IMG/VR virus record: IMGVR_UViG_2778261088_000004
Coordinates: 1 to 25,651 of that record
Direction: 5' to 3' (one strand)
DNA from: a virus
Taxonomy: Duplodnaviria > Heunggongvirae > Uroviricota > Caudoviricetes
DNA length: 25,651 nt
Shown: positions 10,642 to 25,651 of the stretch, piece after piece
Position numbering within the stretch: the stretch's first letter is position 1
Layout of the letters: the number at the start of each line of letters is the position of its first letter
Notes under the pieces: model-generated
Told to the model about the DNA's origin: nothing
What the model saw: the letters and a program-made list of their open reading frames with translations, nothing else
Database searches by the model: none
Translations under genes and position numbers: made by a program

Positions 10642-11000
10642 GAGTTGCAGATCACATCAAACACCTTGAAAGAATTATCGAAAACGGTGAACTCTTAAGA
10701 GATCAGATGAGACGCACGGCAGAAGCCAGGGAGGCGATAATCCACAGTCAGGCTGGTAAATTAAAGCAATTGTCAGAGATTAACACGCTATACAAGAACA
10801 GACGTAACCGGGCGGTGATGCGGCTTCAGAAAGCACGTAATGAAATTAAATTGGTGGAGGCAAAACTGAAAAAACAGATCCAGCGTTACGATCAGCAAGA
10901 TGCTTTTTATGCCGCCATCAAGGCGGCTGCTAATGAAATAGGCATCTGGAAGTTGCTGGTGGAGAAAGCAAAGACGAAGTTAAATGCCAACGAAAGCTGA
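10638..11000 (+). CDS. Hypothetical coiled-coil protein (120 aa); last gene of the rightward operon
   Basis: ATGA overlap with the upstream gene; K/E/R-rich helical sequence. Confidence 0.5.
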   Translation: MRVADHIKHLERIIENGELLRDQMRRTAEAREAIIHSQAGKLKQLSEINTLYKNRRNRAVMRLQKARNEIKLVEAKLKKQIQRYDQQDAFYAAIKAAANEIGIWKLLVEKAKTKLNANES

Positions 11001-11075
11001 ACTACAGGTGCCCACCAGCACATACAGAAAATGATTGTTTCCACATCAAGGAGATTTTAATGTTTCACTGAAACA

Positions 11076-11213
11076 TTAAGTAAGCCAGTGCATAATTCCA
11101 TTTTTTACTGACCTTAAAAGCAAAATCAAAACGATGATGAGGATAATAGCCAGAATCTGGCTAATAATAGGCGCATCTAAAAATGCACTCAGGAACTGAA
11201 AAAAAGCGTTCAT
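11076..11213 (-). CDS. Candidate 45-aa hydrophobic peptide (MNAFFQFLSAFLDAPIISQILAIILIIVLILLLRSVKNGIMHWLT)
   Basis: Found by hand translation of the minus strand; AAGGAA lies 8 nt upstream of the ATG; single transmembrane helix; sits in an otherwise gene-poor gap. Confidence 0.3.
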   Translation of the reverse strand: MNAFFQFLSAFLDAPIISQILAIILIIVLILLLRSVKNGIMHWLT

Positions 11214-12075
11214 TCAGGTGGTTCCTTGTCAAATGTAAAGGTGCACTTGCTCACGTTGACGTAGAAACCCAACCCCTATATAGTTGGATTCGGTGAATGA
11301 AAGTCGTTAACGTGAGCTTACGGCACATGTTTTCGGAAAAACATCAGGGAACGGCTAATTCCTTGATGCGGGTGGGGTCTGTAATGCAGACCCTATCTAT
11401 TAACGTCATGATTGCATCTCAAATTTTCTCCTTATCTTCAATTAATCTACATTCATTTCATCTGTTAGCCACCACAATATGTAGAAAATGGCCCTCTTGC
11501 AAGTGCATAACTTTGTGGATAACTCAGGAAGGAAAAAGTGGCTTTCGCGCACCTTCGGTCAGACAAGGTGTCCGGGAAAGTCAACGCAAAGAAAAAAATT
11601 GTTAAAAATAACGTTTGTTGGAATTGTATATTTTTATCCCCTTCAATGGTTAGCATTCTATTAACATCTTTTTTTAGAGACAGAAAAACATATCGTAACA
11701 ACATATATACAGTGTTAAGAGGCGAGTATTATCCTGCGGTGGGAATTCTGGGCGCTGTTAGATTCGACTTTCTCAGCAGGATTACATCGTCAACTTGCGA
11801 CGTTGCCGTATGACTTTCGTGTAATAGGTGACAATGATGCGGCTAGTGAGTTACTTGTGAAGTTTTTCGGAAAAGGTTTTGTGGCCTCGGATCTTGATGA
11901 GCTACAGCAACATGAAGTGTCTAATTTGATTTTTAGCCATAGCCAATAAGCCTCCCTCCTCCATCAAGGCCACAATTTGTGACCTTAAACAATTTGTTTT
12001 CTGCTTTTTCTTATTTGAGAAAATAACGTTGTTGACAGCTAATAGGCTCGTTGTTGTTATACATGCCTGTATAGA

Positions 12076-12432
12076 TTATGACCGTAAATTATTAGCGGAT
12101 TTTAAGCCATATTCACCGTTGTAGAAATTACTCATGTTCCATTCATTAGGAAGTTCTTTTCTGTCCAATGTATAGTGGCGCACGATATAACGATCTTCAT
12201 CTTCTTCGATGGACAGGCGGACATAGCCAATGTGAATCACCGATACGGGCGGTGTTCGTATTGCATAGATGTCGCGGAGATATACCGGCAGCTCGACAAA
12301 TGCATCAGGTGCATCTGTGATGCTCGTTTTTTCACAGTATTCATATAACGCATCGTTGATATTGTTAAGAGATTCATGATCGTATATTTCCAGGTAATTA
12401 CCGCGATCGCGATGGTACTCGATTTTAGCCAT
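12076..12432 (-). CDS. Hypothetical protein (118 aa), distal gene of a divergent two-gene operon
   Basis: ATG directly abuts the stop of the upstream gene (TGAATG), with AGGGG upstream; acidic; no family recognised. Confidence 0.6.
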   Translation of the reverse strand: MAKIEYHRDRGNYLEIYDHESLNNINDALYEYCEKTSITDAPDAFVELPVYLRDIYAIRTPPVSVIHIGYVRLSIEEDEDRYIVRHYTLDRKELPNEWNMSNFYNGEYGLKSANNLRS

Positions 12433-13017
12433 TCAAAATCCCCTGTTATCGTTTTGCATTTCTCTAATCCGGTTCAGAACTACTTCATGCTGGACTTGGA
12501 TAGCGGCTTTTTCGTTTTCAAGCCGGGCAATAGACATCTCTAATTCTTTGCTGTACCAGGCGAGCTGGGCCAGGTTCATCCGGTTGTGGTCGAGAGTTGG
12601 AGACACTTCGACGCGATCCCTTTCTTCCTGCTTTAATGAGAAGAGATTTATCTCATCCCTTGAGGAAAATTCAGCAACAATTTCTTGTTGATGATCCGGT
12701 CGCTGCGGCATCCTCGCCAGTATAAATGGCGGTTCTTTTGAAAACATGAATGTCGGTTCAGACCGTGTTTTTACCCAGCTTGCCTGCTGTCTTTCGGCAA
12801 GTTCACAGGCTTCATCATAGTTATCTGCCAAACAAAGCACGGATGGACGGTCCCACGCCCCACCATTCAGACAATAAACTACAATTTTCCCGTCAGGTTG
12901 TGTAACCCCATATGGATGGTCCCACCAGGCGTCCAGCTGAGCTTTAGAGCGTTTCTCGTTAGGAGTGCAGTCAAAATTTTTGGGCAATACAGGATCGAGA
13001 GGAATGCGGGCAGGCAT
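12433..13017 (-). CDS. Hypothetical protein (194 aa), proximal gene of a divergent two-gene operon
   Basis: ATG at 13017 with AAGGA 8 nt upstream; C-terminal coiled-coil-like segment; shares its upstream intergenic region with humD. Confidence 0.6.
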   Translation of the reverse strand: MPARIPLDPVLPKNFDCTPNEKRSKAQLDAWWDHPYGVTQPDGKIVVYCLNGGAWDRPSVLCLADNYDEACELAERQQASWVKTRSEPTFMFSKEPPFILARMPQRPDHQQEIVAEFSSRDEINLFSLKQEERDRVEVSPTLDHNRMNLAQLAWYSKELEMSIARLENEKAAIQVQHEVVLNRIREMQNDNRGF

Positions 13018-13152
13018 AGCTAATTCCTTATTAACTGATTGGCAACGAGGTTACGCTGATCCGTTGGTGATGAATAGTAGCAAAGAGCACAAAATCATCA
13101 GCGGTGGTTGATGTACGTAACGCGTTTGCACCAAAGGTGTCTCTTTAATGTA

Positions 13153-13172
13153 TACTGTATAAATGAACAGTA
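13153..13172 (+). promoter_or_regulatory. LexA (SOS) box TACTGTATAAATGAACAGTA
   Basis: CTGT-N8-ACAG with flanking TA/TA, close to the E. coli LexA consensus TACTGTATATATATACAGTA; 20 nt upstream of the humD ATG and overlapping a TATAAAT -10-like hexamer. Confidence 0.7.
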
Positions 13173-13191
13173 TTATTGAGGTGAAAACGCT

Positions 13192-13581
13192 ATGGGCTTC
13201 CCTTCTCCTGCGGCGGATTATGTTGAAAGCCGAATTTCTCTTGATCAGCAACTAATCAGGCATCCATCAGCAACCTACTTCATGCGGGCAGCTGATAGCC
13301 ATCACCGTGAGGGAATATTGCAGGGTGCTTTGCTGGTGGTTGATTCCTCGCTTACTCCGGTTGATGGTTCTCTGCTTGTGTGCGCTATGGAGGGTGAATA
13401 TCGCATAAAGAGATACAGGAAGTATCCGCGCCAGCACCTGGAGGATTTAAGCACCGGGAAGAAAGAGGCGTTACCAGTAGATGACGATGGATGCACGGGC
13501 AGTAATGCTGTTTTTGGTGTGATCACTCATGTCATCAATGATGCCCGAAGTGGGGAGTTTGATGATTGTCCGGTTATTTAA
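13192..13581 (+). CDS. humD: HumD, UmuD'-like SOS mutagenesis protein homolog (129 aa)
   Basis: GFPSPAADYVE...HPSATYF...FGVITHV aligns with the E. coli UmuD C-terminal domain; LexA box upstream; position before phd-doc as in P1. Confidence 0.85.
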   Translation: MGFPSPAADYVESRISLDQQLIRHPSATYFMRAADSHHREGILQGALLVVDSSLTPVDGSLLVCAMEGEYRIKRYRKYPRQHLEDLSTGKKEALPVDDDGCTGSNAVFGVITHVINDARSGEFDDCPVI

Positions 13582-20843: not shown

Positions 20844-21875
20844 ATGTCCAATTTACTGACCGTACACCAAAATTTGCCTGCATTACCGGTCGATGCAACG
20901 AGTGATGAGGTTCGCAAGAATCTGATGGACATGTTCAGGGATCGCCAGGCGTTTTCTGAGCATACCTGGAAAATGCTTCTGTCCGTTTGCCGGTCGTGGG
21001 CGGCATGGTGCAAGTTGAATAACCGGAAATGGTTTCCCGCAGAACCTGAAGATGTTCGCGATTATCTTCTATATCTTCAGGCGCGCGGTCTGGCAGTAAA
21101 AACTATCCAGCAACATTTGGGCCAGCTAAACATGCTTCATCGTCGGTCCGGGCTGCCACGACCAAGTGACAGTAATGCTGTTTCACTGGTCATGCGACGG
21201 ATCCGAAAAGAAAACGTTGATGCCGGTGAACGTGCAAAACAGGCACTGGCGTTCGAACGCACTGATTTCGACCAGGTTCGTTCACTCATGGAAAATAGCG
21301 ATCGCTGCCAGGATATACGTAATCTGGCATTTCTGGGGATTGCTTATAACACCCTGTTACGTATAGCCGAAATTGCCAGGATCAGGGTTAAAGATATCTC
21401 ACGTACTGACGGTGGGAGAATGTTAATCCATATTGGCAGAACGAAAACGCTGGTTAGCACCGCAGGTGTAGAGAAGGCACTTAGCCTGGGGGTAACTAAA
21501 CTGGTCGAGCGATGGATTTCTGTCTCTGGTGTGGCTGATGATCCGAATAACTACTTGTTTTGCCGTGTCAGAAAAAATGGTGTTGCCGCGCCATCTGCCA
21601 CCAGCCAGCTATCAACTCGCGCCCTGGAAGGGATTTTTGAAGCAACTCATCGATTGATTTACGGCGCTAAGGATGACTCTGGTCAGAGATACCTGGCCTG
21701 GTCTGGACACAGTGCCCGTGTCGGAGCCGCGCGAGATATGGCCCGCGCCGGAGTTTCAATACCGGAGATCATGCAAGCTGGTGGCTGGACCAACGTAAAT
21801 ATTGTCATGAACTATATCCGTAACCTGGATAGTGAAACGGGGGCAATGGTACGCCTGCTGGAAGATGGCGATTAG
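20844..21875 (+). CDS. cre: Cre site-specific tyrosine recombinase (343 aa)
   Basis: Translation MSNLLTVHQNLPALPVDATSDEVRKNLMDMFRDRQAFSEHTWKMLLSVCRSWAAWCKLNNRKWFPAEPEDVRDYLLYLQARGLAVKTIQQHLGQLNMLHRRSGLPRPSDSNAVSLVMRRIRKENVDAGERAKQALAFERTDFDQVRSLMENSDRCQDIRNLAFLGIAYNTLLRIAEIARIRVKDISRTDGGRMLIHIGRTKTLVSTAGVEKALSLGVTKLVERWISVSGVADDPNNYLFCRVRKNGVAAPSATSQLSTRALEGIFEATHRLIYGAKDDSGQRYLAWSGHSARVGAARDMARAGVSIPEIMQAGGWTNVNIVMNYIRNLDSETGAMVRLLEDGD matches Cre as I know it; loxP lies 420 bp upstream. Confidence 0.97.
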   Translation: MSNLLTVHQNLPALPVDATSDEVRKNLMDMFRDRQAFSEHTWKMLLSVCRSWAAWCKLNNRKWFPAEPEDVRDYLLYLQARGLAVKTIQQHLGQLNMLHRRSGLPRPSDSNAVSLVMRRIRKENVDAGERAKQALAFERTDFDQVRSLMENSDRCQDIRNLAFLGIAYNTLLRIAEIARIRVKDISRTDGGRMLIHIGRTKTLVSTAGVEKALSLGVTKLVERWISVSGVADDPNNYLFCRVRKNGVAAPSATSQLSTRALEGIFEATHRLIYGAKDDSGQRYLAWSGHSARVGAARDMARAGVSIPEIMQAGGWTNVNIVMNYIRNLDSETGAMVRLLEDGD

Positions 21876-23649: not shown

Positions 23650-24486
23650 CTAGTATGACGTCTGTCGCACCTGCTTGATCGCGGCCGCGATAGCTAGATC
23701 GCGTTGCTCCTCTTCTCCATCCGCGTTCCAAGCTGCGGAAAGGCACCCATAAGCGTACGCCTGGTCGAGCAGGCGACGCGGATCGACGTCCAGCGCACGA
23801 GAGAATGCGTCCGCCATCTGTGCAATGCGTCTAGGATCGAGACAAAGGTCGTCTCTGTCAGCCGGATCGTAGAACATATTGGCGGCGCCAAAGCCCACTT
23901 CACCGACCAGACCGACGGGATCTATCACCAGCCAGCCGCGACTGGAGAACATGATGTTTTCATGATGCAGATCGCCATGTAGCCCACGCAGTTCCGAGGC
24001 ATTGCTCATCATTTGATCGGCTATAATCGCCGCGTGGACGTAGTCAGTTTGACAACCTGCGTTTTGATCATCGCGCGCCCGCTGAAACAAAGCTGCAAAG
24101 CGATCCCGGATCGGGAGAAGGGCAGAAGGCAGGGGTTCCTCAGATGCGGCATACAGCTTCGCCATTAGTTCCGCTGCAATTTCGGTCGCCTGGTAGTCGC
24201 CGTGCTCGGCAACGATGTGAGAGAGCATTCGCTCCCCGGCATATTCGAGCAACATCAGATTGTTCTCACGACCGAGCAACCGGACTGCTCCCCTCCCATT
24301 GCGCCATACCAGATAGTCGGCCCCGCGCAGTTCATCAGCAATGTCTTCTATAGGTTTCAATCCCTTGACGATTGCAGGAGTCCCGTCTGGCAATGAAACT
24401 TTCCAAACGAGGCTGGAAAAGGTGTCCGCAATGAGAACAGGTTGCGAAACGTGCCAATGAGCAGGAAAAACAGGCGGCATGAACAT
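23650..24486 (-). CDS. strB: Aminoglycoside 6-phosphotransferase APH(6)-Id, StrB (278 aa)
   Basis: Translation MFMPPVFPAHWHVSQPVLIADTFSSLVWKVSLPDGTPAIVKGLKPIEDIADELRGADYLVWRNGRGAVRLLGRENNLMLLEYAGERMLSHIVAEHGDYQATEIAAELMAKLYAASEEPLPSALLPIRDRFAALFQRARDDQNAGCQTDYVHAAIIADQMMSNASELRGLHGDLHHENIMFSSRGWLVIDPVGLVGEVGFGAANMFYDPADRDDLCLDPRRIAQMADAFSRALDVDPRRLLDQAYAYGCLSAAWNADGEEEQRDLAIAAAIKQVRQTSY is recognised as StrB; start overlaps the strA stop by 1 nt. Confidence 0.95.
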   Translation of the reverse strand: MFMPPVFPAHWHVSQPVLIADTFSSLVWKVSLPDGTPAIVKGLKPIEDIADELRGADYLVWRNGRGAVRLLGRENNLMLLEYAGERMLSHIVAEHGDYQATEIAAELMAKLYAASEEPLPSALLPIRDRFAALFQRARDDQNAGCQTDYVHAAIIADQMMSNASELRGLHGDLHHENIMFSSRGWLVIDPVGLVGEVGFGAANMFYDPADRDDLCLDPRRIAQMADAFSRALDVDPRRLLDQAYAYGCLSAAWNADGEEEQRDLAIAAAIKQVRQTSY

Positions 24487-25289
24487 CAACCCCAAGTCAG
24501 AGGGTCCAATCGCAGATAGAAGGCAAGGCGTTCGCGGTCGGGGGCTTCGATCCCCAATACATTGAATAGGACAGCGAAGGCGCGCTCTGCTTCATCTGGC
24601 GCTGCCCAGTTCTCTTCGGCGTTAGCAATCATGAGTGCCAAATCGGCATAGCGATCTGCTGTTCCGAGCCGCCCAAGGTCGATCAGACCCGTGCATTGAA
24701 GAGTTTTAGGGTCCACCATGAAGTTCGGCATGCAGGGATCACCATGGCAAACAACCATATCGGTGCGCTCTTGGTCGAGCCGCACCGGTAGCTCTCGTTC
24801 GACACGAGCCAAAAGATCGAGCTGCGGCGTACTCTTGTCCTCGTCCGGTAAGAAGTCGGGATTGACGGCATTGCGGGACACCACATCAACGGCGCGTCCG
24901 AACATTCGCGACAGCCTGCGCTCAAACGGACATTGATCAACCGATAGGCTGTGAACAGCGCCAAGTTGCTGCCCCATTGACGGCCACGCTTTGAGCAAAT
25001 CCGCTCCAGACAGATCAGCCGCCGGTACTCCCGGAATTGCCGTTATCACCAAGCATGCACCCTCCTGTTCCTCCTGCCAGTTGATCACCTCGGGGCAAGC
25101 CACACCTCGACCTTTGAGCCAAATGAGGCGGTCACGCTCTCCAGCGAGCTCACCGCGGCGGGAAGCAGGTGCGATTTTCGCGAAGGCATGCCCGTCACCA
25201 CGTCGAAAAACAAAATCACCAGATTCTCCGCCTCTGACAGGCAACCAGTCAGAATGCGATTCACCAAAAAAAATATTAGTTCGATTCAA
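24486..25289 (-). CDS. strA: Aminoglycoside 3''-phosphotransferase APH(3'')-Ib, StrA (267 aa)
   Basis: Translation MNRTNIFFGESHSDWLPVRGGESGDFVFRRGDGHAFAKIAPASRRGELAGERDRLIWLKGRGVACPEVINWQEEQEGACLVITAIPGVPAADLSGADLLKAWPSMGQQLGAVHSLSVDQCPFERRLSRMFGRAVDVVSRNAVNPDFLPDEDKSTPQLDLLARVERELPVRLDQERTDMVVCHGDPCMPNFMVDPKTLQCTGLIDLGRLGTADRYADLALMIANAEENWAAPDEAERAFAVLFNVLGIEAPDRERLAFYLRLDPLTWG is recognised as StrA; upstream of strB on the same strand. Confidence 0.95.
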   Translation of the reverse strand: MNRTNIFFGESHSDWLPVRGGESGDFVFRRGDGHAFAKIAPASRRGELAGERDRLIWLKGRGVACPEVINWQEEQEGACLVITAIPGVPAADLSGADLLKAWPSMGQQLGAVHSLSVDQCPFERRLSRMFGRAVDVVSRNAVNPDFLPDEDKSTPQLDLLARVERELPVRLDQERTDMVVCHGDPCMPNFMVDPKTLQCTGLIDLGRLGTADRYADLALMIANAEENWAAPDEAERAFAVLFNVLGIEAPDRERLAFYLRLDPLTWG

Positions 25290-25651
25290 TGGAGGTTCCT
25301 TCAGTTTTCTGATGAAGCGCGGAGGTGGCTCAACCTGCGAAAAGAAACGAGTTGCTACGTAAGTCCGAGAACATGCTTTCCATGGTCTTGCACCGGTTGT
25401 GTTCCGGTCTATCTCTCATTTTAAGCGGCTTTTTTCTCAAATGCCACCGGCGATTTCCAGCCGAGTGCTGATGAATCCCCTAATGATTTTTATCAAAATC
25501 ATTAAGTTAAGGTAGATACACATCTTGTCATATGATCAAATGGTTTCGCCAAAAATCAATAATCAGACAACAAAATGTGCGAACTCGATATTTTACACGA
25601 CTCTCTTTACCAATTCTGCCCCGAATTACACTTAAAACGACTCAACAGCTT

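What the first reader, a model, noticed from the sequence alone, without database searches (positions are those of the whole stretch)
12076..13191. Divergent two-gene operon of unknown function sharing the humD SOS-box intergenic region
Two minus-strand genes (194 aa and 118 aa) are arranged as a coupled operon (TGAATG, each with its own Shine-Dalgarno sequence) and diverge from humD across a 174-bp region that holds a near-consensus LexA box. Neither product matches a family I recognise; the first has a C-terminal coiled-coil-like segment and the second is acidic. A small SOS-adjacent operon in a phage-plasmid accessory position is a plausible place for an anti-defence, superinfection-exclusion or host-takeover function. 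This is the most obvious candidate for an undescribed system in the window.
Basis: partly seen in the sequence, partly recalled or inferred. Interest (0 to 1): 0.6.

Follow-up and report, generated by a model that had tools for sequence, protein, structure and literature searches.

The report
P1/P7 lxr–upf93.6 accessory operon beside humD
The two genes are real and are already catalogued in phages P1 and P7 (lxr, "LexA regulated function", and upf93.6), but nobody knows their function; here they prove to be two separable, plasmid-type small acidic proteins with no recognisable fold, not a coupled system.

Summary
Two abutting minus-strand genes (194 aa, 12433-13017; 118 aa, 12076-12432; TGA-ATG junction, each with its own Shine-Dalgarno) diverge from humD across 174 bp. 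That spacer holds a near-consensus LexA box (13153-13172).

The locus is not undescribed. It is 98.7-99.7% identical to phage P7, SJ46 and P1-like records. There the genes are annotated as upf94.2/lxr ("LexA regulated function") and upf93.6, and the LexA site is annotated too. Function is unknown everywhere.

New here:
- **Lxr** is a ~135-aa N-domain plus a lineage-specific C-terminal coiled coil. The N-domain defines a large family (at least 879 clusters) on alpha-, beta- and gammaproteobacterial plasmids, conjugative elements and phage-plasmids. It has no Pfam model.
- **Upf93.6** belongs to a small family. One homologue lies in an ssb-containing, leading-region-like gene block of IncN plasmids.
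- **Shared properties:** both families are uniformly acidic and have no solved-structure neighbour.
- **Separability:** each gene occurs widely without the other, and only the P1 lineage has the LexA box.
- **Published data:** lxr is dispensable for lytic growth and strongly transcribed during P1vir infection.

Best guess, at low confidence: these are independent host- or defence-modulating cargo proteins, derepressed with SOS. Interest is modest.

The parts
12433..13017 (-). lxr (= P7 upf94.2), 194 aa, 'LexA regulated function'
   Evidence: ORF. It is 93% identical to P1 Lxr and matches PHROG 6164 at E 6.6e-135, function unknown. It is annotated in the P1 and P7 records. dN/dS is 0.10.
12613..13017 (-). 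Lxr N-domain (residues ~1-135): conserved 'LxrN' module with motifs LDxWWDHP(Y/F)G, CLNGGAWDR and QRPD
   Evidence: Alignment A1 has 24 invariant columns. The AF2 model has pLDDT of about 85-98 over this part, with topology b-b-b-a-b-b-a. The domain occurs alone as 130-140-aa proteins in at least 879 clusters.
12442..12573 (-). Lxr C-terminal long helix (residues 149-192), coiled-coil-like; present only in the enterobacterial long forms
   Evidence: AF2 predicts helix 149-192. There is a weak DUF7491 hit at E 0.054. The segment is absent from the 130-140-aa homologues. This half of the gene is the divergent part between P1-like variants, at 55-80% DNA identity against over 93% for the 5' half.
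12076..12432 (-). upf93.6, 118 aa, small acidic alpha/beta protein
   Evidence: ORF. It is 98-99% identical to P7 Upf93.6 and matches PHROG 5797 at E 1e-76. The AF2 model has pLDDT 76.6 and pTM 0.72. pI is 4.9.
12430..12435 (-). TGA-ATG junction; both genes are in the same reading frame
   Evidence: Sequence. (13017-12432) = 585 = 3 x 195.
13018..13191 (.). 174-bp divergent intergenic region
   Evidence: It is 98% conserved among P1, the window and a variant whose Lxr is only 79% identical. The flanking humD-phd-doc block is equally conserved, so this is block conservation, not extra constraint.
13153..13172 (.). LexA box TACTGTATAAATGAACAGTA
   Evidence: unique in the window, 0/100 shuffles. 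It is annotated as a LexA protein_bind feature in the P1 and P7 records.
13127..13156 (+). candidate humD promoter (TGCACC-18-TATACT); the -10 overlaps the LexA box
   Evidence: Own consensus scan. Prediction only.
13156..13185 (-). candidate lxr promoter A (TTCACC-18-TATACA); overlaps the LexA box
   Evidence: Own relaxed scan. It is a weak match (8 of 12) and the tool's stricter scan found none here.
13074..13101 (-). candidate lxr promoter B (CTGATG-16-TGcTACTAT, extended -10); lies downstream of the LexA box and does not overlap it
   Evidence: If this promoter is the one used, LexA would not be expected to repress lxr.
13192..13581 (+). humD (UmuD'-like), the divergent neighbour
   Evidence: Peptidase_S24 and PHROG 811 UmuD-like; annotated.
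12483..12483 (.). P1-type / P7-type mosaic junction inside the last ~15 codons of lxr
   Evidence: P1 records match only from query base 584. Many PLSDB plasmids break at the same place, query 371-422.

Best explanation
**Identity (near certain).** This is the lxr-upf93.6 accessory operon of P7-type P1-like phage-plasmids. It lies in the variable region between the pmgT-V block and humD-phd-doc.

**Mechanism (inferred, roughly 0.3).** The two products are independent, non-essential cargo proteins of plasmid ancestry. They would act by binding a host or competitor protein, in the manner of establishment or anti-defence factors, and not by binding DNA or catalysing a reaction.
- Lxr is a compact, very conserved acidic N-domain. 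In this lineage it is joined to a C-terminal coiled coil that probably makes it oligomeric.
- Upf93.6 is a separate small acidic alpha/beta protein, translated from the same mRNA by close coupling.

**Regulation (partly inferred).** The operon lies back-to-back with humD around one strong LexA operator. It is therefore probably derepressed with the SOS response. It is also strongly transcribed in lytic growth.

**Shown:** gene identity, purifying selection, separability of the two genes, family distributions, acidity, lack of any known fold or domain, position of the LexA box, and, from published data, dispensability and expression of P1 lxr.

**Inferred:** LexA control of lxr, oligomerisation, a protein-binding mode, and an anti-defence or establishment role.
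For: **Identity.** The window is 98.7-99.7% identical to P7, SJ46 and P1-like records that annotate lxr/upf94.2, upf93.6 and the LexA site.

**Plasmid ancestry.** tblastn finds Lxr relatives in 891 PLSDB plasmids, 564 of them conjugative, against 13 phage records. Upf93.6 is in 185 plasmids against 7 phage records.

**LxrN family.** It has at least 879 clusters across alpha-, beta- and gammaproteobacteria, at 50-60% identity across classes. Such conservation would fit a conserved target.

**LxrN contexts.**
- Next to the TraG/VirD4 coupling protein in 17 of 53 genome loci.
- After traCDG and an SNase gene, near ArdC, in alphaproteobacterial elements.
- Near ArdC-N, SNase and a resolvase in Pseudomonas plasmids.

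**Upf93.6 contexts.**
- A 38%-identical homologue lies in an ssb / TrfB-like operon pointing toward stbABC in IncN plasmids. I take this to be the leading region by analogy with R388/pKM101 (my own knowledge; oriT was not located).
- More distant homologues lie in runs of small co-directional ORFs with HigB and a large ParB_N protein.
- Leading regions are enriched for anti-defence and SOS-inhibitor genes (PMC11541004).

**Acidity.** Both families are uniformly acidic: median pI 4.98 (n=48) and 4.80 (n=24).

**Published data on P1 lxr.** lxr is non-essential for P1 lytic growth by CRISPRi (PMC10695390). Its log fold change is 5.9 at 10 min and 10.4 at 30 min of P1vir infection, higher than humD at 3.8 and 6.8 (PMC8201110 Table S1).

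**LexA box.** It is unique in the window and beyond chance. One candidate lxr promoter overlaps it.
Against: - No direct functional evidence exists for either protein.
- Context is heterogeneous, with no conserved partner gene.
- 'Guilt by leading-region association' is weak, and for LxrN the leading side of oriT was not established.
- No LexA box precedes LxrN genes anywhere else: a gamma-type box-like site (not a good LexA box) occurred in 1 of 53 loci and an alpha-type box in none. SOS control is therefore not intrinsic to the family.
- The equally good candidate promoter B lies downstream of the box.
- I did not check whether the published RNA-seq is strand-specific. lxr signal could include antisense read-through from the late promoter LPhot.
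- At least one P1-like plasmid carries both genes as pseudogenes.
Confidence: 0.35

Rival explanations
1. SOS/translesion accessory. Lxr, with or without Upf93.6, would work with HumD, host UmuC/RecA or the replisome in DNA-damage tolerance. It would be co-induced with humD from the shared LexA operator, much as P1 Hot is a theta-subunit mimic and HumD a UmuD' mimic.
For: - lxr is divergent from humD around one LexA box.
- In P1 the same locus also carries hot, a DNA pol III theta homologue.
- LxrN genes lie near umuD/umuC-type genes in two further, unrelated elements. In a sphingomonad element LxrN is convergent and adjacent to a Peptidase_S24 + IMS/DUF4113 operon. In an enterobacterial large plasmid umuC lies 4 kb away.
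- Host recA is induced during P1vir infection, when lxr is high.
Against: - Only 7 of 58 genome loci, representing 2 independent elements, have umuC within 5 kb. This is not clearly above chance for plasmids that often carry umuDC.
- No LexA boxes precede LxrN elsewhere.
- RCS47 and D6 keep humD and the box but lack lxr, so humD does not need it.
Confidence: 0.15
2. Plasmid-maintenance DNA-binding factor. Lxr would be, as NCBI's pipeline names it, a 'DNA-binding protein' that assists multimer resolution, partition or replication control of the plasmid prophage.
For: - NCBI names many homologues 'DNA-binding protein'.
- In Pseudomonas plasmids LxrN sits in a 66-aa / LxrN / resolvase operon with overlapping stop and start, near RepA and an SNase nuclease. 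This recalls the RK2 parCBA layout (my own knowledge).
- SNase is a recurrent neighbour, in 9 of 53 loci.
Against: - No NCBIfam or Pfam model backs the name.
- The family is uniformly acidic, with N-domain pI 4.5-6.1.
- Resolvase adjacency is confined to one plasmid group.
- P1 resolves multimers with Cre/lox (established knowledge; cre is at 20844-21875 in this window, assigned by position and length only).
Confidence: 0.12
3. Toxin-antitoxin or abortive-infection/exclusion module. The abutting pair would be a defence or addiction cassette, with one protein neutralising the other.
For: - It is a two-gene, tightly coupled small operon in an accessory region next to phd-doc.
- In SSU5-like phage-plasmids LxrN lies just upstream of a HEPN_Toprim_N/RiboL-PSP gene.
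Against: - Each gene is common without the other. P1 and the most abundant P1-like variant have lxr + hot and no upf93.6. Salmonella P1-like elements have lxr followed by a different 70-aa gene. upf93.6 homologues follow unrelated genes in IncN and Salmonella plasmids.
- There are no PADLOC, Pfam or NCBIfam hits.
- The one Lxr::Upf93.6 fusion protein is a singleton on a 1.2-kb contig.
Confidence: 0.08

Closest known systems
Phage P1 lxr (P1_gp102, 'LexA regulated function') and phage P7 upf94.2
   Same: Orthologue: 93% aa identity to P1 Lxr over 189 residues, and 98.5% to P7 Upf94.2. It has the same position divergent from humD, the same 174-bp spacer (98% identical) and the same LexA box.
   Different: P1 Lxr is 190 aa with a different extreme C-terminus. 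It is followed by convergent hot instead of co-directional upf93.6; the junction is at window ~12483. No function is known for either. 'LexA regulated' is a name given from the nearby box.
Phage P7 upf93.6 (PHROG 5797)
   Same: 98-99% identical, at the same position directly after the lxr stop codon.
   Different: P7 additionally has IS903 about 260 bp further on; the window does not. Function unknown.
Leading-region establishment / anti-defence genes of conjugative plasmids (PsiB, ArdA/ArdB/KlcA, ArdC, plasmid SSB)
   Same: Works-like resemblance only. These are small, acidic, non-essential, MGE-borne proteins that are highly conserved across hosts. A Upf93.6 homologue sits in an ssb operon in what I take to be the leading region of IncN plasmids, and LxrN is often beside T4SS coupling-protein, SNase and ArdC genes.
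   Different: There is no sequence or structural similarity to any of them. Here the genes are on a non-conjugative phage-plasmid and next to a LexA operator, not an ssDNA promoter. No inhibition activity has been tested.
LexA-controlled divergent SOS gene pairs / umuDC-type operons (mucAB, impCAB)
   Same: A strong CTGT-N8-ACAG operator lies immediately upstream of a UmuD'-type gene, with an accessory gene beside it.
   Different: Lxr is unrelated to DinI/ImpC-type accessory proteins. There is no umuC partner on the element. The box is 136 nt from the lxr start.

Membership tests
P1 Lxr / PHROG 6164 | Full-length sequence homology to P1 Lxr | tested here: met
   93% identity over 189 aa; PHROG 6164 E 6.6e-135 over 1-194.
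P1 Lxr / PHROG 6164 | Position divergent from humD with the LexA box in the spacer | tested here: met
P7 Upf93.6 / PHROG 5797 | Full-length sequence homology | tested here: met
   PHROG 5797 E 1e-76 over 1-118; 98.3% identity to P7.
LexA (SOS) regulon member | High-quality LexA box (CTGT-N8-ACAG with TA-rich core) | tested here: met
   TACTGTATAAATGAACAGTA at 13153-13172; 0/100 shuffles.
LexA (SOS) regulon member | Operator overlaps the promoter of the gene concerned | tested here: inconclusive
   The predicted humD -10 overlaps the box. For lxr, candidate A overlaps and the equally scoring candidate B does not. The stricter scan found no promoter in the spacer.
LexA (SOS) regulon member | DNA-damage-inducible, LexA-dependent transcription | not testable with these tools
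   The only published data found are for P1vir infection, where lxr log fold change rises from 5.9 to 10.4. No lexA-mutant or mitomycin C data were found.
Type II toxin-antitoxin pair | Obligate co-occurrence of the two genes | tested here: not met
   lxr occurs without upf93.6. upf93.6 homologues occur without lxr.
Type II toxin-antitoxin pair | Homology to a known toxin or antitoxin family | tested here: not met
Known anti-restriction / SOS-inhibitor proteins (ArdA, ArdB/KlcA, ArdC, PsiB, Ocr) | Sequence or fold similarity | tested here: not met
Known anti-restriction / SOS-inhibitor proteins (ArdA, ArdB/KlcA, ArdC, PsiB, Ocr) | Inhibition of a defence system or of RecA/SOS | not testable with these tools
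   Needs experiments.
DNA-binding protein (NCBI PGAP product name for Lxr homologues) | Recognisable DNA-binding domain, or a basic surface | tested here: not met
   No NCBIfam or Pfam model. N-domain pI is 4.5-6.1 in 48 members. No DNA-binding fold was recovered.
STT3/AglB oligosaccharyltransferase C-terminal 'WWDYG' domain | Significant sequence match and shared fold | tested here: not met

The most novel reading that the evidence does not exclude
The Lxr N-domain (LxrN) may be an unrecognised, very widespread MGE protein family. It has at least 879 clusters on plasmids, conjugative elements and phage-plasmids of alpha-, beta- and gammaproteobacteria, no Pfam model and no structural neighbour in the PDB. 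It could be a new class of inhibitor of a conserved host function: a defence system, or a RecA/replisome/SOS component. Upf93.6 could be a second, independent new inhibitor. In P1-like elements both would be wired to the SOS response.
Probability: 0.25. Interest if true: 0.6.

Novelty: already known. Interest (0 to 1): 0.3.

Why it matters
As a locus it adds nothing new. The genes, their order and the LexA site have been in the P1 and P7 GenBank records for some two decades.

What could matter is the family behind lxr. It is a compact, strongly conserved, acidic ~135-aa domain carried by hundreds of plasmids, including large Klebsiella and Enterobacter resistance plasmids, alphaproteobacterial conjugative elements and SSU5-like and P1-like phage-plasmids. 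It has no domain model, no solved relative and a probably misleading 'DNA-binding protein' label.

If it targets a conserved host process, it would be a new player in plasmid or phage-plasmid establishment. P1 offers an easy genetic system in which to test this, and upf93.6 could be tested in the same experiments.

Tried and rejected
1. **Domain libraries.** Pfam, NCBIfam and PADLOC gave nothing significant for either protein. PHROGs gave only families of unknown function.
2. **PDB sequence and profile searches** gave nothing significant.
3. **Fold searches.**
   - Lxr by Foldseek PDB: no hit at E <= 0.001.
   - The afdb50 library was unavailable.
4. **Profile search hits of Upf93.6 to giant proteins** are LRR / Rx_N repeat artefacts.
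5. **Rosetta-stone fusion.** P0057 (Lxr C-terminus::Upf93.6) is a single 1.2-kb contig. Its '58 members' are ordinary separate proteins. Rejected as evidence of interaction.
6. **In-frame TGA read-through.** A second lxr-upf pair (L016) is also in frame but uses TAA plus a 15-nt spacer. This is probably coincidence.
7. **Candidate relatives by size.** A 194-aa neighbour in L025, a 116-aa gene in RCS47 and a 136-aa neighbour in L097 are all unrelated.
8. **LexA boxes upstream of LxrN genes elsewhere.** No convincing box was found.
9. **Extra conservation of the 174-bp spacer.** It is no higher than in the flanking humD-phd-doc block.
10. **Literature.** No functional study of lxr, upf93.6 or upf94.2 was found. 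The P1 genome paper and the HumD paper are not held.
Full report
**1. Observation.**
The window holds two minus-strand ORFs, 12433..13017 (194 aa) and 12076..12432 (118 aa). On the minus strand the first stop, TGA, is followed directly by the second ATG. AAGGA lies 7 nt before the first start and GGGGA 6 nt before the second. humD (13192..13581, +; Peptidase_S24, PHROG UmuD-like) diverges across exactly 174 bp.

The site TACTGTATAAATGAACAGTA at 13153-13172 is the only match in the window within 3 mismatches of the LexA consensus. It was never produced in 100 shuffles. The description is therefore accurate.

**2. Identity.**
Megablast places the region in P1-like phage-plasmids. It is 99.7% identical to three 'P1' isolates, 99.3% to Salmonella phage SJ46 and 98.7% to phage P7, over all 1801 bases queried.
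- In P7 the genes are annotated upf94.2 and upf93.6, with a LexA protein_bind feature.
- In one isolate they are 'LexA regulated function' and 'Upf93.6'.
- Reference P1 matches only from window ~12483 rightwards. Its lxr (190 aa, 'LexA regulated function') is 93% identical to the 194-aa protein. It is followed by convergent hot, not by upf93.6.

Gene 2 is the P7-type cargo gene upf93.6.

In PLSDB, 242 plasmids match the region. 125 of them carry the whole two-gene unit plus spacer.

**3. Are the genes real and expressed?**
- lxr has dN/dS 0.10 against a 67%-identical homologue. upf93.6 has dN 0.33 with saturated dS.
- Published CRISPRi scores P1 lxr as non-essential for lytic growth (PMC10695390).
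- Published RNA-seq of P1vir infection lists lxr at log fold change 5.9 (10 min) and 10.4 (30 min). humD is at 3.8 and 6.8 (PMC8201110 Table S1). I did not verify the strand-specificity of that data set.
- At least one P1-like plasmid carries both genes as pseudogenes.

**4. The LexA box and promoters.**
The box is 20 nt upstream of the humD ATG and overlaps the best predicted humD -10. It is 136 nt from the lxr ATG.

The tool's promoter scan finds nothing in the spacer. A relaxed scan gives two equally scoring lxr candidates:
- TTCACC-18-TATACA (13185-13156), which overlaps the box.
- CTGATG-16-TGcTACTAT (13101-13074), which lies downstream of the box and does not overlap it.

The name 'LexA regulated' thus rests on proximity. 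I found no experiment.

The spacer is 98% identical among P1, the window and a variant whose Lxr is only 79% identical. The adjoining humD-phd-doc block is just as conserved. The divergence begins inside lxr at about 12730, that is, in the C-terminal half of the protein.

**5. Lxr protein.**
AF2 with a 48-sequence alignment gives pLDDT 88.9. The model has an N-domain (b-b-b-a-b-b-a, to about residue 133), a short low-confidence linker, and one long helix at 149-192.

The N-domain is sharply conserved: 24 invariant columns, with motifs LDxWWDHP(Y/F)G, CLNGGAWDR and QRPD. It exists on its own as 130-140-aa proteins.

A profile search finds at least 879 clusters, none with a Pfam domain. They come from Enterobacterales, Pseudomonas, Xanthomonas, Burkholderiales, Rhizobiales and Sphingomonadales. 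tblastn finds it in 891 plasmids (564 conjugative) but only 13 phage records.

Contexts are varied:
- SSU5-like phage-plasmids, between a RecA/gp32/exonuclease block and a HEPN_Toprim gene.
- Pseudomonas ~47-kb plasmids, in a 66-aa / LxrN / resolvase operon.
- Alphaproteobacterial elements, straight after traC-traD-traG and an SNase gene, near ArdC.
- Large IncFIB and IncHI plasmids, among hypothetical genes.

Across 53 genome loci the recurrent neighbours are the TraG/VirD4 coupling protein (17), WGR (12), DUF736 (10), a ~60-aa helical ORF (10) and SNase (9).

No convincing LexA box of the gamma or alpha type precedes the gene in any of these loci.

The N-domain is acidic throughout the family, with median pI 4.98. 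NCBI's 'DNA-binding protein' label has no HMM behind it and no structural support.
- Foldseek gives nothing at E <= 0.001.

**6. Upf93.6 protein.**
Close homologues are few and enterobacterial. An exhaustive profile search adds about 20 standalone 100-123-aa relatives sharing H(Y/F)T(L)..(K/R)E(L)...W....FY.G.YG. Its hits to giant proteins are LRR / Rx_N repeat artefacts.

It occurs without lxr in several settings:
- After an 81-aa and a 320-aa winged-helix-like gene next to ccdAB in Salmonella plasmids.
- After ssb and a TrfB-related gene in IncN plasmids, in a co-directional block running toward stbABC. I take this to be the leading region by analogy with R388/pKM101. That is my own knowledge; oriT was not located here.
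- Between Mrr_cat and PLDc_2 genes.
- In runs of small co-directional ORFs.

**7. One system or two genes?**
Two genes.
- lxr is followed by hot in P1 and in the most abundant P1-like variant.
- It is followed by a 70-aa gene in Salmonella P1-like elements.
- It is followed by upf93.6 and then that same 70-aa gene in another element.
- RCS47 and D6 keep humD and the box but have hot in place of lxr.
- The apparent Lxr::Upf93.6 fusion protein is a singleton.

The region is a known recombination hot spot of P1-like elements (PMC9603915, PMC6906374). PLSDB breakpoints cluster at the 3' end of lxr and within the spacer.

**8. How it most likely works.**
Shown:
- A co-translated pair of non-essential, purified-by-selection, acidic small proteins of plasmid ancestry.
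- It sits next to a strong LexA operator and is transcribed in lytic growth.

Inferred, at about 0.3: each acts on its own by binding a conserved host or rival-element protein, in the manner of establishment or anti-defence factors. Lxr would be oligomerised by its coiled coil, and SOS derepression would add expression when the lysogen is damaged or induced.

Leading regions are enriched for such genes (PMC11541004). That is association, not a test.

Rivals:
- A role with HumD, UmuC or RecA. LxrN sits beside umuDC-type genes in two further unrelated elements, but only in 7 of 58 loci.
- A maintenance or DNA-binding role, suggested by the resolvase operon and contradicted by charge and fold.
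- A TA or abortive-infection pair, contradicted by separability.

**9. Verdict.**
The locus is already annotated and named, and its function is still unknown.

It is not a novel system, but lxr fronts a large, uncharacterised MGE family that deserves an experiment. Interest is 0.3.

Noticed in passing
window 25513-25582 (-): Rfam RNA-OUT (97 bits, E 1.9e-19), the antisense RNA of IS10. An IS10/Tn10 end therefore lies at the right edge of the window, next to ORFs at 23650-25289.
   Followed up: no
window 12430-12435; L016 4983-5003: lxr and upf93.6 are in the same reading frame, separated only by TGA, so read-through would give a 313-aa fusion. One database protein (P0057) has TGG there, but it is a single 1.2-kb contig. 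A second lxr-upf pair is also in frame but has TAA plus 15 nt. This is probably coincidence.
   Followed up: yes
window ~12433-12730 versus L092: There is a mosaic boundary inside lxr. The 3' half (linker plus coiled coil) is only 55-80% identical at DNA level to the commonest P1-like variant. The 5' half, the spacer and humD-phd-doc are 93-100% identical. The C-terminal module of Lxr seems to be exchanged or to diverge separately from the N-domain.
   Followed up: partly
L051/L052/L054/L059 (sphingomonad contigs), e.g. L059 4213-5883; L017-L020 and L033-L035: LxrN genes lie convergent and adjacent to a umuD-like (Peptidase_S24) plus umuC-like (IMS/IMS_C/DUF4113) operon in a sphingomonad element. 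They lie 4 kb from umuC in an enterobacterial large plasmid. Together with P1 humD this makes three unrelated co-localisations with Pol V-type genes. The number is too small to call significant.
   Followed up: partly
L093 68-745: A Tad2-like (anti-Thoeris) gene (Pfam E 1.9e-22) lies just beyond doc in a P1-like metagenomic contig that also carries humD-lxr-hot. Known anti-defence cargo does land in this neighbourhood.
   Followed up: no
L003-L006, 6498-7763: In SSU5-like Klebsiella phage-plasmids the short LxrN gene is followed, about 100 bp downstream on the same strand, by a 421-aa HEPN_Toprim_N / HEPN_RiboL-PSP protein. It is split in two in one contig. This is a possible defence gene.
   Followed up: no
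window 11000-12075: An ORF-poor, AT-rich stretch (39% GC against 48% for the window) lies between the pmgV-like gene and upf93.6. P7 has IS903 inserted in the corresponding region. upf93.6 itself is 41% GC. No intrinsic terminator was found after upf93.6 on the minus strand.
   Followed up: partly
Lxr residues ~29-101 (window ~12715-12931): Both the single-sequence and the profile search of the PDB pick the C-terminal globular domain of archaeal oligosaccharyltransferase AglB (3vgp, 3vu0). They align its WWDYG motif with Lxr's WWDHPYG at E 0.08-0.4. Structure searches do not support this.
   Followed up: yes
L095 (NZ_CP080373.1, pPK5086-95kb) 301-1416: In this IncY P1-like plasmid, at 98.8% DNA identity, lxr is reduced to a 135-aa C-terminal ORF and upf93.6 has no ORF of 80 aa or more. 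Both genes can decay.
   Followed up: partly
PMC8201110 Table S1 (P1 coordinates 86837-87409): During P1vir infection lxr rises far more than its divergent partner humD: log fold change 10.4 against 6.8 at 30 min. The two are therefore not simply co-regulated, or lxr signal includes antisense read-through from the late promoter LPhot.
   Followed up: no
L007-L010, 5790-7040: Pseudomonas ~47-kb plasmids carry a conserved 66-aa / LxrN / serine-resolvase operon, with LxrN and resolvase overlapping by 4 bp. It sits beside a Fic/VbhA pair, RepA_C, an SNase nuclease and an ArdC-N protein.
   Followed up: no
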